DNA of 56,234 nt, the filler included, from Malassezia furfur (Eukaryota): the NCBI GenBank assembly GCA_052055015.1. It is 2 parts of 2 records of this genome, joined end to end, with 100 filler letters (N's around TTAATTAATTAA, not from the genome) between each part and the next. Parts side by side here need not be neighbours in the genome. Positions count along the whole stretch, not along the records: positions 1 to 28,114 come from JBQJIT010000112.1; 1 more part is not named here. One strand, given 5' to 3'. Shown here piece after piece: positions 1 to 3,400 of this stretch (its first letter is position 1; the number at the start of each line of letters is the position of its first letter). Made by a program: the position numbers and the translations under genes. The notes under the pieces were generated by a model. The model saw nothing but the letters and a program-made list of their open reading frames with translations. It was not told the DNA's origin and ran no database searches.

Positions 1-2135
1 GCCGCCGCGCGCGCCGCGTCAGGCGCCTCGCCACGCGCCTCGTCGGCCGCGCGCAGCGCCAGTACCTTCTTCTCCAGCGTAAACAAATGATGGTCTTCGC
101 TGTGCGGCGTCAGCAGACGCACGGCCTCGGCGAGCCGCAGCAGGTACTCGTCGTTGCGCCCGCTCGGCCCTTGGCACGTATAGATGCGCTCGGCGAGCTG
201 GTCGAGCGGCTCAGCACCCACAAACGCTTCGTTGTCGGGCAGGCCGACGTACACCAGCGCCTCGGGAATCAGCACCTCGGGCTGCTCCGAGTCGGTGTCC
301 TCGACGTCCGCGGCGATGCCGAGGATCGGCGCAGTCATCGCCGTGTACCCATTCTTTTCGCGGTGGTCCAGGTAGGCACGCACCTCGTCTGCATGCGCCG
401 CATCAATCGTATAGCTGATGCCCCACACAATGTCGCCCTCGGGCGCCTCGTCCGCATCGGGCAGCTGCTTCCAGTCTTCCGACTTGACCAGCGTCACCAC
501 GCGTCCGGGACGCTCGGGCGTGCCGCGGTGATCGACCGAGTGCTGTGCAAAGCGCCGCGCGAACCCTTGGATGTAGCCAGGCGTGTACCCAATCGCGTGC
601 GGCGGCGGCTTAAAGATCAGCGAGCCGTAGCCAAACACGTCAAACGACCCGGCGGGGCGCTCGGGGAACTGGGGGAGCGCCGCAAGGTGCGGCAGCTTCT
701 CGACGAGCGCAGCATGCATGCGGTCGACCGGCGATGCCTTTGGCGCCGCGCGTGGCGGCGGTCCGTCCTGCTGCTCGAGCGCCGCACGCATCTTCTTCTC
801 CTGCTTCTTCTTCTTCTTGTCCTTTTTGGGCGCGTCGGCGGGCGCCACATCGACGGGCGCATCATCGACCGACAGCCCCTGGGTATCCTCCGCAAGATCG
901 TCGCCGAGCAGCTCGTCCTCGGCGAGCATCTCGCGCTTGAGCCGCTGCACCTCCTTCTTGTGCTTCTTGCTCCGCTCGTGGTTCTCCCACGCGGCACGCG
1001 ATTGGAAGCGCTTGTTGCACGCAACACAGTCAAACGCTTCCTCGTCCTCGTCACCCTCGGAGGCGCTTGCGTCCTCGTCGGCACTCGACACATGCGCATC
1101 GTCGCTGTCGTACGACTCGCCACTCGTAAAGTCGGACGCCCAGTCGTCCTCGGGCTCATTGGCCATCTGCCAGCTCTGCGCCTGGAACGACGCGGCCTGC
1201 TTCCGCTTCTCTTCCTGGCGCTTGGCCGCCTCGGCCTTGCGCCGCTTCTCGGCCTCGGCCGTGGCCGCGGCGCTGGTCGCCTCCGATTGCGCCGCTTGGT
1301 ACGCCTTGTACCGAGGATCGCGGCGGCGGATAAACACGGCAAGCGAGCGGATCGCCTCGTTGTACTCGCGCCGTGCGGCGTCGCGCGCGCGCTTGTTGTC
1401 CTTCTCCATGAGCCGCTTGACACGCCGGTCCTGGGCATCGCGCACGTCAAACTTGTCCTTCCACGCAAAACTCTTGCGGCTCGAAAAGTTCATCCAGAAT
1501 TGGTAGAAGGAGCGCACGTCGCGCCGCCCATCCGTCGCAATGTATGGCGTGTTGGGGTGCCCGAATCCGACGTACCAGTACGCGTCGTCGCGATCGGGGT
1601 CCGCAAAGTCGTTCTCGTGCACCTCGCCAGGATACGGCGCCGCAACACGGTCCTCCTCGGCAATCAGCGCAAACAGACGGCGGTACGTGCCAAAGAACGA
1701 CGAGTCAGTGTCGCTCAAGTCCTTGGCGATCGACGGCGAGTAGAAACGCAGCAGGTGCGCGACACCGACGCCGGGCGCCAGAGACGACGCCTTCGGCGCC
1801 GCACCGCCGCTGCGGAAGAACCGAAACTTGGCATCGACGTCTTCCTCAGCATCCTCCTCGGTGCCTTGCATCAACCGGTCGCGGTTTTGGTCGTACCACG
1901 CACGCTCCGTCTCATCAGAGAGCACCTCGTACGCCTCCTGCAGCTTGGTAAACTTCTTGTTCGCCTCGGCCTCCTTGCCGGGGTTCTTGTCGGGGTGATA
2001 CCGAAGCGCGAGCCGGCGGTACGACTTGCGGATCCCTTCCACCGGCTCATTCTGGTCTACCTCGAGCAGCTCATAGTAGTCCACAAATACGTCGGCGTCC
2101 GCCGCCGCCGCCTCGCTCGACTGCCGCGCACCCAT
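1..2135 (-). CDS. JJJ1: Jjj1/DNAJC21-type J-domain co-chaperone with C2H2 zinc finger, fused in frame to a ChaC glutathione-specific gamma-glutamylcyclotransferase domain (3' end runs off the window)
   Basis: Manual translation of the minus strand from ATG 2135: DYYELLEV...IRKSYRRLALRYHPDKNPG...LQEAYEVLSDETERAWYD (J domain, HPD); FDCVACNKRFQSRAAWENHERSKKH (zinc finger, ~1040-960); then in the same frame FDVFGYGSLIFKPP...DHRGTPERPGRVVTL...YLDHREKNGY...GPSGRNDEYL (ChaC, ~645-60). Absent from the ORF track, consistent with no stop before the window edge. Confidence 0.9.
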   Translation of the reverse strand, partial: MGARQSSEAAAADADVFVDYYELLEVDQNEPVEGIRKSYRRLALRYHPDKNPGKEAEANKKFTKLQEAYEVLSDETERAWYDQNRDRLMQGTEEDAEEDVDAKFRFFRSGGAAPKASSLAPGVGVAHLLRFYSPSIAKDLSDTDSSFFGTYRRLFALIAEEDRVAAPYPGEVHENDFADPDRDDAYWYVGFGHPNTPYIATDGRRDVRSFYQFWMNFSSRKSFAWKDKFDVRDAQDRRVKRLMEKDNKRARDAARREYNEAIRSLAVFIRRRDPRYKAYQAAQSEATSAAATAEAEKRRKAEAAKRQEEKRKQAASFQAQSWQMANEPEDDWASDFTSGESYDSDDAHVSSADEDASASEGDEDEEAFDCVACNKRFQSRAAWENHERSKKHKKEVQRLKREMLAEDELLGDDLAEDTQGLSVDDAPVDVAPADAPKKDKKKKKQEKKMRAALEQQDGPPPRAAPKASPVDRMHAALVEKLPHLAALPQFPERPAGSFDVFGYGSLIFKPPPHAIGYTPGYIQGFARRFAQHSVDHRGTPERPGRVVTLVKSEDWKQLPDADEAPEGDIVWGISYTIDAAHADEVRAYLDHREKNGYTAMTAPILGIAADVEDTDSEQPEVLIPEALVYVGLPDNEAFVGAEPLDQLAERIYTCQGPSGRNDEYLLRLAEAVRLLTPHSEDHHLFTLEKKVLALRAADEARGEAPDAARAA

Positions 2136-2188
2136 GAAGGAAGCCTCCACGCGCCCTGCCCAAATTTCGTCCCTTTTTCTCCACATTC

Positions 2189-3400
2189 ATGACACCTCAG
2201 CAACGCGAAGCCCAGCGAACACTGCGTGTGGCGTACGAAGCACGGTTACCGCCCAATGCACGGCGATTCCCTTGGCCGGACCGCGTCGGACTGATCACCG
2301 CACAAGAGGGGCTGGACAAAGTACTCTTTGACCAAGCGCGGATCTTCCGCGCGAACGATGAATATGAACGTGCGTTCCTCAAGCACCTCGTCACTCGCAC
2401 GGAGCATGCCATTTCTGATGCGACGCCCGACGAGGAGCGCGCCATCCCGATACCACGGCAGGACTGGGCGGTAAACGAGGGAATTCTCGAGCGCTATGTC
2501 GAGCTGGTCTCGCTCCCTACGGCGGAAGATGCCCCTGGGGGACTCGTCGGTGCACCGGTGCCCCAGCCCATGTATCTGCGCCACTTTTTCCCTTGTGACG
2601 ATGGCGAAGACGACCCGGTGCTGGGACCATCAGCAAGCATCACACTCCACGAGGAGGGCGTGGCCATCTCGCAGGGGACCACCGGCCTGAAAACATGGGA
2701 GGCCAGCTACCGACTCGCCGCCTACCTCGTCGCCGAGCAGACTTCTTGGCGGTCACAGGCGCAAAGCGTCGTGGAGTTGGGAAGCGGCGCGGGGTTCCTG
2801 GGCATGGTGTGTGCGCGCCTCTTGCGCGGAACGTCGTCGCGGATCCTCTTGACCGATATCGCTGGCAACGTGTTGGAACGCTTGCAGGAGACGGCACATC
2901 TTAGTACGTATCTTGAGACTGACCAAGACAACGTGCAGGGAGGCGTGTTCACGGCGCCGCTAGACTGGGCCGAAGCGTACTACCGCCGGACCAAGGAGAC
3001 CTCCCTTTTGCGCAACGCCAACGCCACGCGCGTGTTGGCAGCCGATGTGGTCTACGACCCGGAGCTGATCGTGCCGTTCGTCGATGCTTTGCGCACGGCG
3101 CTGACTGGCTCGGACGATGATTCGCGGTACCCCACCGACCCGGAATGGGACGAAAACATCCCTTACGCCCTTGTCGCAAGCACTGTACGCAACCCGGCGA
3201 CGTACGAGGCGTTCTTAGACCGGCTCACCGCCGAAAAACTGCGCTGGAAGAAGGTCGAGATACCCACGCCGGTCTGGCCCGGCTCCGACGAGACGACAGC
3301 GCCCTTGCCGCTTTTCCCATCCACGCACGATCCTGAACTGGAAGGCTCGGTGGCTCTCCTACATGTACAGCTACAGCCACGCTCACCCGTGGAATTTTAG
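2189..3400 (+). CDS. EFM3: SAM-dependent protein-lysine methyltransferase, EFM3/FAM86 (eEF2-KMT) type
   Basis: ISQGTTGLKTWEAS, VVELGSGAGFLG, AADVVYDP, ASTVRNPATY motifs; probable in-frame 24-nt intron 2904-2927 (gtacgt...ctgaccaag). Confidence 0.85.
   Translation: MTPQQREAQRTLRVAYEARLPPNARRFPWPDRVGLITAQEGLDKVLFDQARIFRANDEYERAFLKHLVTRTEHAISDATPDEERAIPIPRQDWAVNEGILERYVELVSLPTAEDAPGGLVGAPVPQPMYLRHFFPCDDGEDDPVLGPSASITLHEEGVAISQGTTGLKTWEASYRLAAYLVAEQTSWRSQAQSVVELGSGAGFLGMVCARLLRGTSSRILLTDIAGNVLERLQETAHLSTYLETDQDNVQGGVFTAPLDWAEAYYRRTKETSLLRNANATRVLAADVVYDPELIVPFVDALRTALTGSDDDSRYPTDPEWDENIPYALVASTVRNPATYEAFLDRLTAEKLRWKKVEIPTPVWPGSDETTAPLPLFPSTHDPELEGSVALLHVQLQPRSPVEF

What the first reader, a model, noticed from the sequence alone, without database searches (positions are those of the whole stretch)
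1..2135. Jjj1/DNAJC21 J-protein fused in frame to a complete ChaC glutathione-degrading enzyme
Seen: one uninterrupted minus-strand frame runs from the J domain (HPD) through a C2H2 finger and a Lys-rich linker (KKDKKKKKQEKK) into a ChaC domain with intact FGYGSL, DHRGTP and YLDHREKNGY (catalytic Glu) motifs, and continues past the window. Established: in yeast and animals Jjj1 (60S maturation co-chaperone) and ChaC/Gcg1 are separate genes. Inference: GSH breakdown could be tethered to pre-60S particles or Hsp70. Because the ORF continues after ChaC, ChaC may be inserted ahead of Jjj1's usual second zinc finger. An in-frame Met at 719 (MHAALVEK) may be a relic ChaC start or an alternative start. 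I cannot say whether this architecture is already catalogued.
Basis: partly seen in the sequence, partly recalled or inferred. Interest (0 to 1): 0.8.

Follow-up and report, generated by a model that had tools for sequence, protein, structure and literature searches.

The report
ChaC enzyme nested inside Jjj1 co-chaperone
In this Malassezia-like yeast, as in smut fungi and their relatives, the glutathione-degrading enzyme ChaC is built into the middle of the ribosome-assembly co-chaperone Jjj1 as one gene; this is real and conserved, but nobody appears to have studied it.

Summary
Window 3..2135 (minus strand) is one open frame. It carries a J domain, a zuotin-homology domain, a C2H2 finger, a Lys-rich patch and a complete ChaC domain (Pfam E 2.7e-53).

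A public protein that matches all 711 window-encoded residues is 780 aa long. It ends, 69 residues beyond the window, with Jjj1's second C2H2 finger. ChaC is therefore inserted inside Jjj1's charged region, between the two fingers, and is not appended.

Of 108 homologue clusters, 73 carry ChaC. Every named one belongs to Ustilaginomycotina (Malassezia, Ustilago, Sporisorium, Tilletia, Microstromatales and others). Jjj1 of Agaricomycotina, Pucciniomycotina and a chytrid lacks ChaC, and Agaricomycotina have stand-alone ChaC proteins.

ChaC and the two zinc fingers are the best-conserved parts (ChaC: 68 of 207 columns invariant in 49 proteins), and the catalytic Glu is kept in all 73.

The M. sympodialis group has an extra ChaC(+finger 2) paralogue that was copied from the fused gene.

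The Met at 719 is not conserved. A Met at 791-789 is conserved in 37 of 49.

The architecture sits in sequence databases under automatic names. Seven literature searches found no description of it. Whether it couples glutathione breakdown to ribosomes is untested. No RNA data or genome were available.

The parts
3..2135 (-). Coding sequence of the Jjj1-ChaC protein, residues 1-711 of 780. The last 69 residues (linker, second Lys/Arg patch, second C2H2 finger) lie beyond window base 1.
   Evidence: Open frame. 100% identity to P0002 residues 1-711 as one block. P0002 sequence.
1890..2081 (-). J domain (residues 19-82) with the HPD motif; H47, P48 and D49 are invariant
   Evidence: Pfam PF00226, E 3.6e-24. 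14 of 64 columns invariant in 49 fused proteins. pLDDT about 90.
1305..1526 (-). Zuotin-homology domain, Pfam core at residues 204-277. The helical region of the model spans about 125-316.
   Evidence: PF21884, E 3.5e-13. Helices H147-164 and H237-316 in the model.
1044..1169 (-). Acidic linker predicted to be disordered (residues 323-364)
   Evidence: pLDDT below 50. 1 of 46 columns invariant.
957..1034 (-). First C2H2 zinc finger of Jjj1 (residues 368-393; CVACNKRFQSRAAWENHERSKKH)
   Evidence: PF12171 and PF12874. Motif at residue 370. 9 of 27 columns invariant.
792..827 (-). First Lys-rich patch (residues 437-448, KKDKKKKKQEKK), the left edge of the insertion site
   Evidence: K437, K438, K441 and K444 are K in 48 of 49 proteins, and K440 in 49 of 49. 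The patch aligns with the K-rich patch of unfused Jjj1.
789..791 (-). Conserved in-frame Met449, directly after the Lys-rich patch. It is a candidate internal start or a relic start of the inserted gene (inference).
   Evidence: Met in 37 of 49 fused proteins. Absent at this place in the 3 unfused Jjj1. The start of the M. sympodialis paralogue P0112 aligns with it.
717..719 (-).
   Evidence: Commonest residues in this column are R 9, E 6, S 5 and K 5 of 49.
60..638 (-). ChaC (glutathione-specific gamma-glutamylcyclotransferase) domain, residues 500-692
   Evidence: PF04752, E 2.7e-53. Human ChaC2 6ky1/6ky0/6k95 E about 5e-37 and yeast 5hwi E 5e-33. 68 of 207 columns invariant. Ten-residue pLDDT block means mostly 63-94, with the 531-540 block at 47 (loop 533-543).
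357..359 (-). Codon of the presumed catalytic Glu593 (in HREKNGY)
   Evidence: Aligns with the Glu/Gln position that differs between chains 6ky0 and 6ky1. R592 to Y597 are invariant in 49 proteins. The REK-type motif is found in 72 of 73 ChaC-bearing clusters, and the 73rd (P0063) has NHREKNGY with the Glu kept.

Best explanation
This is one gene for one bifunctional protein. It is the Jjj1/DNAJC21 orthologue, the Hsp70 co-chaperone of late 60S ribosomal subunit maturation. A complete and apparently active ChaC glutathione-degrading domain was inserted into its Lys/Arg-rich region between the two C2H2 fingers.

Shown here:
- The frame is continuous.
- The domain order is J, ZHD, finger 1, K patch, ChaC, K/R patch, finger 2.
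- The same insertion site is used across three classes of Ustilaginomycotina.
- The ChaC domains form one clade.
- The ChaC active-site motifs and both Jjj1 fingers are under strong conservation.

Inferred:
- The insertion happened once, in an ancestor of Ustilaginomycotina, by relocation of the lineage's ordinary basidiomycete ChaC gene.
- In most of these fungi it is the only ChaC.
- The site was permissive. In yeast the charged, finger-flanked C-terminal module is dispensable for Jjj1's growth and 60S function, although it mediates ribosome/polysome and Rei1 binding.
- The enzyme still converts glutathione to 5-oxoproline and Cys-Gly while flexibly tethered by disordered linkers to a ribosome-associated, Hsp70-recruiting scaffold.

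Whether that tether has a regulatory meaning, or only gives co-expression, is open.
For: - Continuous frame and domains. One search shows 100% identity over 711 aa in one block.
- The second finger follows ChaC in the full 780-aa protein.
- 73 of 108 homologue clusters carry ChaC. By motif order, 49 are J-Z-ChaC-Z and 6 are Z-ChaC-Z with the N-terminus cut off.
- Every named ChaC-bearing hit is from Ustilaginomycotina. The lineages of Violaceomyces, Jaminaea, Tilletiaria and Acaromyces were checked; the rest are placed from my own knowledge.
- None of the named hits without ChaC is from that subphylum.
- Aligned with unfused Jjj1 of Schizophyllum, a Microbotryomycete and a chytrid, ChaC is a clean block between the two basic patches.
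- Invariant columns in 49 proteins: ChaC 68 of 207, J 14 of 64, finger 1 9 of 27, finger 2 9 of 27, linkers 1 of 100 and 0 of 43.
- PDB sequence matches to ChaC2 and yeast Gcg1, with both Glu positions kept.
- Tree: all 31 Ustilaginomycotina ChaC rows form one clade (99/94), separate from 9 stand-alone Agaricomycotina rows.
- No stand-alone Ustilaginales ChaC appears among the best 120 short proteins for either ChaC query.
- AF2 model: folded J, ZHD, finger 1, ChaC and finger 2, joined by stretches with pLDDT below 50; pTM 0.39.
- Yeast domain data come from passages read in PMC2854368.
Against: - There is no transcript, peptide or enzyme evidence. A single polypeptide is therefore inferred only from conservation of the open frame.
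- 'Sole ChaC' rests on the best 120 of more than 5000 hits in two searches. A divergent second ChaC could rank lower, and the Acaromyces entry (P0114, partial, 214 aa) is unresolved.
- 12 of the 73 ChaC-bearing clusters have J and finger 1 but no detectable second finger. Some are truncated or altered gene models. Tilletia (P0059-61, P0063) seems truly to lack it, so finger 2 is not universally kept.
- Moniliellomycetes and Peribolosporomycetes did not appear among the named hits.
- The tree has no outgroup beyond Agaricomycotina and is rooted at its midpoint.
Confidence: 0.85

Rival explanations
1. One open frame, two products. The conserved internal Met449, or a proteolytic cut in the disordered linker, gives a free ChaC-finger 2 protein and a shortened Jjj1, so the two activities are not physically coupled in the cell.
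For: - Met449 is Met in 37 of 49 fused proteins and lies exactly where the alignment with unfused Jjj1 breaks.
- The stand-alone paralogue P0112 of M. sympodialis starts at the aligned position, and P0110 and P0111 start within a residue or so.
- The segment around residues 418-463 has pLDDT below 50 apart from one helix.
- Yeast Jjj1 lacking the C-terminal charged domain or finger 2 is functional (PMC2854368, passages).
Against: - Frame continuity across the junction is kept in all 55 clusters that have ChaC followed by finger 2. That would not be needed for two separate products.
- 12 of 49 lack the Met.
- The paralogue's start may simply be the first ATG left after a partial duplication.
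- There are no transcript data either way.
Confidence: 0.12
2. Assembly or annotation artefact: two neighbouring genes that happen to lie in one frame, or a sequencing error that removed a stop codon.
For: - The window is 60-69% GC here, so long spurious open frames are common. The antisense strand is open for 729 codons.
- Most database entries are automatic gene models.
Against: - Jjj1 sequence lies on both sides of ChaC: finger 1 before it and finger 2 after it. Read-through of two adjacent genes cannot produce that.
- The same order occurs in 49+6 clusters from many independently sequenced species.
- The window's own protein cluster has 12 member sequences on 28 contigs.
Confidence: 0.01
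3. The ChaC domain has lost catalysis and serves only as a structural or binding module of Jjj1.
For: None directly. Inserted enzyme domains are sometimes co-opted as scaffolds (general knowledge). The M. sympodialis group acquired a separate ChaC copy, which could hint that the fused one does not cover the enzymatic need.
Against: - The YGS motif region (G502, G504, S505), DHRGT (D535-T539) and REKNGY (R592-Y597) are invariant in 49 proteins.
- The Glu is kept in 73 of 73.
- In species that have the paralogue, the fused copy has very short branches: 0 to 0.055, against 0.037 to 0.40 for the paralogues.
- No stand-alone ChaC was seen in the other lineages.
Confidence: 0.02

Closest known systems
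Jjj1 (S. cerevisiae) / DNAJC21 (human): cytosolic J-protein of late pre-60S maturation
   Same: - N-terminal J domain with HPD, a zuotin-homology domain, and two C2H2 fingers flanking a Lys/Arg-rich region (architecture as described in PMC2854368).
- The best hits without ChaC are Jjj1-type proteins of other basidiomycetes, at 34-43% identity.
- Atlas neighbours are named JJJ1 homolog and DNAJC21.
   Different: - A roughly 260-residue block (Met449 to about residue 713), containing a full ChaC enzyme, interrupts the charged region.
- The N-terminus reads MGxxxS in the basidiomycete forms.
- No functional data exist for this form.
ChaC family: yeast Gcg1 (PDB 5hwi), human ChaC2 (6k95) and ChaC1
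   Same: - Full-length Pfam ChaC match.
- E about 5e-37 to ChaC2 and 5e-33 to Gcg1 over the whole domain, with both Glu positions conserved.
- 51-61% identity to stand-alone basidiomycete ChaC proteins.
   Different: It is not a free protein of 200-240 aa but is embedded in a J-protein. In Malassezia it carries a conserved N-terminal helix with the LPHL motif.
Zuotin (Zuo1/DNAJC2), the other ribosome-anchored J-protein with a ZHD
   Same: J domain, ZHD and a charged ribosome-binding region (PMC2854368). A Zuo1-type protein (P0109) was the weakest hit.
   Different: Zuotin has no C2H2 fingers of this type and no ChaC. The window protein is clearly on the Jjj1 side.
Stand-alone ChaC(+finger 2) paralogues of the M. 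sympodialis group (P0112 'similar to GCG1', P0110, P0111, P0072, P0073)
   Same: - 71-74% identical to the window's ChaC part.
- They share the LPHL helix and, in P0111, an intact finger 2.
- They nest inside the Malassezia fused clade.
   Different: - They lack J, ZHD and finger 1.
- Finger 2 has decayed in P0112 and P0110.
- The P0072 and P0073 gene models run on into an alpha/beta-hydrolase-like part.
- There is no such copy in this 56-kb window.

Membership tests
ChaC / glutathione-specific gamma-glutamylcyclotransferase (PF04752) | Full-length match to the family profile above the curated cut-off | tested here: met
   181.1 bits against a cut-off of 21, profile positions 3-174 of 176
ChaC / glutathione-specific gamma-glutamylcyclotransferase (PF04752) | N-terminal YGSL-type motif and catalytic Glu (their roles are recalled from the literature, not taken from a call) | tested here: met
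   FGYGSL at residue 501 and HREKNGY with E593. E593 aligns with the position that differs between PDB chains 6ky0 and 6ky1. Invariant in 49 proteins.
ChaC / glutathione-specific gamma-glutamylcyclotransferase (PF04752) | Sequence relationship to solved ChaC structures | tested here: met
   6ky1, 6ky0 and 6k95 at E about 5e-37; 5hwi and 5hwk at E about 5e-33. No fold search was run.
ChaC / glutathione-specific gamma-glutamylcyclotransferase (PF04752) | Cleaves glutathione to 5-oxoproline and Cys-Gly | not testable with these tools
   Needs an enzyme assay
Jjj1 / DNAJC21 | J domain with HPD | tested here: met
   PF00226, E 3.6e-24. HPD invariant.
Jjj1 / DNAJC21 | Zuotin-homology domain | tested here: met
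   PF21884, 50.5 bits against a cut-off of 25.1
Jjj1 / DNAJC21 | Two C2H2 fingers flanking a Lys/Arg-rich region | tested here: met
   Fingers at residues 370 and 746 of P0002, basic patches at 437-448 and about 727-734. The second finger lies outside the window and is known only from the database protein. The region is interrupted by ChaC.
Jjj1 / DNAJC21 | Orthology: the only Jjj1-type gene in the genome | tested here: inconclusive
   No named Ustilaginomycotina Jjj1 without ChaC among 108 hits, but no genome was available to search.
Jjj1 / DNAJC21 | Binds 60S or pre-60S particles and, with Hsp70 and Rei1, releases Arx1 | not testable with these tools
   Known for yeast (PMC2854368). Untested for this protein.

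The most novel reading that the evidence does not exclude
Across a whole fungal subphylum, cytosolic glutathione degradation is carried out on the ribosome. The only ChaC enzyme is held on 60S subunits and polysomes by Jjj1's basic/zinc-finger module, next to a J domain that recruits Hsp70. Glutathione turnover (cysteine release, local redox state) would then be set by ribosome biogenesis or translation load. A conserved internal Met may add a free ChaC-finger isoform as a second level of control.
Probability: 0.2. Interest if true: 0.7.

Novelty: new variant of a known kind. Interest (0 to 1): 0.45.

Why it matters
Both halves are well-known families, and the fused sequences are already in the databases under automatic names ('ChaC-domain-containing protein', 'related to JJJ1', 'glutathione-specific gamma-glutamylcyclotransferase'). 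This is not a new kind of protein.

The arrangement itself is what is worth noting. An enzyme is nested inside the ribosome-binding module of a ribosome-assembly co-chaperone. It has been kept at the same site across Malasseziomycetes, Ustilaginomycetes and Exobasidiomycetes, and it appears to be the lineage's only ChaC.

Stable fusions of this kind are classic hints of a functional link. Here the link would be between glutathione turnover and ribosome biogenesis or Hsp70. No such link is established in yeast or animals, apart from the stress-induced expression of mammalian CHAC1 (recalled).

It is directly testable in tractable organisms such as U. maydis and Malassezia. It also matters for annotation: these genes are named after only one of their two halves, and in M. 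sympodialis the label 'GCG1-like' sits on a secondary copy.

Tried and rejected
- Own genome: not held. I could not look for a second ChaC or Jjj1 in this organism.
Transcript structure remains unknown.
- Earlier findings of this scan: nothing for this sequence.
- Literature for the fusion: ChaC+Jjj1 (13 papers), ChaC+Ustilago (45 papers, 15 listed), gamma-glutamylcyclotransferase+Malassezia (2 papers), ChaC/DnaJ/Ustilaginomycotina (15 of 139 listed), 'ChaC domain'/'J domain'/'gene fusion' (15 of 39 listed), 'related to JJJ1' (0 papers), DNAJC21+ChaC (12 of 45 listed). Judged from titles and abstract openings only, none is about this protein. Many 'chac' matches seem to be other words or names. 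Supplementary tables were not searched.
- Met at 719 as a relic start: rejected because it is not conserved.
- Second ChaC copy, or the hydrolase-like tail of P0072, inside the window: none.
- Artefact, read-through of two genes, and dead-enzyme readings: rejected (see rival explanations).
- No complex prediction or fold search was run. The report claims no protein-protein contact, and the sequence matches to solved ChaC structures were already decisive.
Full report
**1. The observation**

The minus strand of window 3..2135 is a single stop-free frame of 711 codons starting at MGARQSS and running off the window edge. Pfam finds four domains, all above the curated thresholds:
- DnaJ at residues 19-82;
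- the zuotin-homology domain at 204-277;
- a JAZ/zf-met type C2H2 finger at 368-393;
- a full-length ChaC domain at 500-692 (E 2.7e-53, profile positions 3-174 of 176).

The region is 60-69% GC and the antisense strand is also open for 729 codons. An open frame alone would therefore mean little here; the domain matches and the homologues carry the argument.

**2. What lies beyond the window**

A database protein, P0002, is 100% identical to all 711 window-encoded residues and is 780 aa long. Its cluster has 12 member sequences on 28 contigs. The extra 69 residues are an Ala/Pro-rich linker, a second basic patch (KPKRRSKK) and a second C2H2 finger, CNVCHAGFPSRSKLFAHVREAGH.

This finger is the counterpart of the C-terminal finger of ordinary Jjj1 proteins, for example CNVCGEAFPSKTKLFAHIESSGH in Schizophyllum. 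ChaC is therefore not appended to Jjj1 but inserted into it.

Aligned with unfused Jjj1 from an agaricomycete, a microbotryomycete and a chytrid, the ChaC block is a clean insertion. It lies between the first Lys-rich patch and the second basic patch plus finger 2.

**3. Distribution**

The search with the whole protein returned 108 clusters.
- 73 carry the ChaC family, and 61 of these also carry DnaJ. The other 12 are N-terminally cut models or the paralogues described in section 5.
- By motif order: 49 are J, finger, ChaC, finger; 6 are the same without the J domain; 11 plus P0063 are J, finger, ChaC without a detectable second finger; 4 are finger, ChaC; 2 are ChaC only.
- The 12 without finger 2 include truncated or odd gene models (P0023, P0030, P0035, P0054). 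They also include four Tilletia clusters that end in a basic tail instead.

Named sources of the fused form are eight Malassezia species plus Ustilago, Sporisorium, Pseudozyma, Kalmanozyma, Melanopsichium, Testicularia, Thecaphora, Violaceomyces, Tilletiaria, Tilletia, Jaminaea, Parajaminaea, Microstroma and Sympodiomycopsis. These fall in Malasseziomycetes, Ustilaginomycetes and Exobasidiomycetes. Four lineages were checked and the class list; the rest are placed from my own knowledge.

The 35 hits without ChaC that carry a name are from Pucciniomycotina (for one of them), Agaricomycotina, a chytrid and an ascomycete. The ESM Atlas holds a 338-member cluster of this architecture, with Basidiomycota as the commonest phylum.

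**4. Origin of the ChaC part**

With the window's ChaC part as query, the closest proteins of ordinary ChaC size are a few Malassezia entries. After those come about 110 stand-alone ChaC proteins of Agaricomycotina at 51-61% identity. The same picture appears with the Ustilago ChaC part against all proteins under 505 aa.

No stand-alone ChaC from Ustilaginales, Microstromatales or Tilletiales is among the best 120 in either search. The exceptions are fragments of the fused gene (P0070, P0113, P0216) and a partial Acaromyces model (P0114).

I chose 40 rows for a maximum-likelihood tree: 25 fused, 5 paralogues, Acaromyces and 9 Agaricomycotina. It has no more distant outgroup and is rooted at its midpoint. 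It puts all 31 Ustilaginomycotina ChaC domains in one clade (99/94) against the agaricomycete ones.

Together with the shared insertion site, this points to one insertion of the lineage's own ChaC gene in an early ustilaginomycotine. That step is inference. So is 'sole ChaC', since only the top of two long hit lists could be inspected.

**5. A secondary escape**

M. sympodialis (P0112, annotated 'similar to S. cerevisiae GCG1', 294 aa), M. equina (P0072), M. caprae (P0073) and two unnamed relatives (P0110, P0111) have an extra ChaC gene.
- It nests inside the equina/caprae/nana branch of the fused Malassezia clade.
- It shares the Malassezia-specific LPHL helix ahead of ChaC.
- It still carries finger 2, intact in P0111 and decayed in P0112 and P0110.

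It is therefore a partial duplicate of the fused gene's 3' part, not an ancestral free ChaC. The fused copies in those species keep very short branches (0-0.055), so they remain constrained. The window holds no such copy.

**6. Is each part functional?**

In 49 full-architecture proteins the fraction of invariant columns is as follows:

| Region | Invariant columns |
|---|---|
| ChaC | 68 of 207 |
| Finger 1 | 9 of 27 |
| Finger 2 | 9 of 27 |
| J domain | 14 of 64 |
| ZHD region | 32 of 201 |
| Linker 394-493 | 1 of 100 |
| Linker 701-743 | 0 of 43 |

The ChaC motifs around G502/G504/S505, D535-T539 and R592-Y597 never vary. The Glu of HREKNGY is present in all 73 ChaC-bearing clusters.

That Glu, and the one in ADEV, align with the two positions that distinguish PDB chains 6ky0 and 6ky1 of human ChaC2. 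I recall these as the E74Q and E83Q active-site mutants; that label is from memory.

The AlphaFold2 model has mean pLDDT 72.9 and pTM 0.39. It shows separately folded J, ZHD, finger 1, ChaC (495-700) and finger 2 units. These are joined by low-confidence stretches at 323-364, 418-438, 454-463 and 714-741, giving a beads-on-a-string protein.

**7. Where the insert sits in functional terms**

Passages read in Albanese et al. [quoted passage not shown] - Deleting the charged domain, or finger 2, still rescues growth, 60S/40S balance and polysome profiles.

The ChaC insert thus lies in the part of Jjj1 that tolerates change yet holds the protein on ribosomes. That explains why the insertion could be tolerated. 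It also makes ribosome tethering of ChaC a reasonable but untested idea.

**8. Internal starts**

Residue 449 (window 791-789), immediately after the Lys-rich patch, is Met in 37 of 49 fused proteins. It has no counterpart in the three unfused Jjj1. It also aligns with the annotated start of the M. sympodialis paralogue.

It could be the relic start of the inserted gene or a working internal start. It could equally be a neutral feature, and the paralogue's start may simply be the first ATG left after duplication.

**9. Verdict**

This is a real, ancient and conserved domain insertion that makes a bifunctional Jjj1-ChaC protein. It is catalogued under automatic names but apparently undescribed: seven searches, judged from listings only. 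Mechanistic coupling between glutathione degradation and ribosome maturation or Hsp70 is the interesting open reading, which I put at about 0.2. Transcript and genome checks could not be run.

Noticed in passing
window 2189-3400 (+): A divergent neighbour ORF of 403 aa with a Methyltransf_16 lysine-methyltransferase domain (E 8e-15). Its first ATG lies only 53 bp from the Jjj1-ChaC start codon at 2135, so the two genes would share a very short bidirectional promoter region, unless a later ATG is the true start.
   Followed up: partly
window 2118-2135 (-), residues 1-6: The protein starts MGARQS. Gly2 and Ser6 are at least 90% conserved among the 12 aligned Jjj1 proteins of basidiomycetes, fused or not; only the chytrid differs. 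This matches the MGxxxS pattern of N-myristoylation signals (pattern recalled from memory). Yeast Jjj1 is not known to be myristoylated.
   Followed up: no
P0072 (M. equina) and P0073 (M. caprae), not in the window: The gene models of the ChaC paralogue run on into a roughly 400-aa part with a weak alpha/beta-hydrolase match (PF00561, E 1.7e-4, below the cut-off). This may be a second fusion or a merged gene model. P0111 from a close relative ends instead with an intact finger 2.
   Followed up: partly
P0059-P0061, P0063 (Tilletia), not in the window: The Tilletia proteins have J, finger 1 and ChaC but end in a Lys-rich tail without the second finger. This suggests loss of finger 2 in that lineage or a missed last exon.
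   Followed up: no
window 3-2192 (+): The antisense strand of the gene is open for 729 codons. This is a by-product of high GC and codon bias and has no family signal. It is a reminder that ORF length alone is uninformative in this genome.
   Followed up: no
P0002 residues 469-485 (window 681-731, -): A short helix with the motif LPHLxxLP just ahead of ChaC is modelled with pLDDT near 88. It is shared by fused and paralogous Malassezia ChaC but not by the Ustilago or Tilletiaria forms. It appears to be a genus-specific N-terminal extension of the enzyme domain.
   Followed up: no
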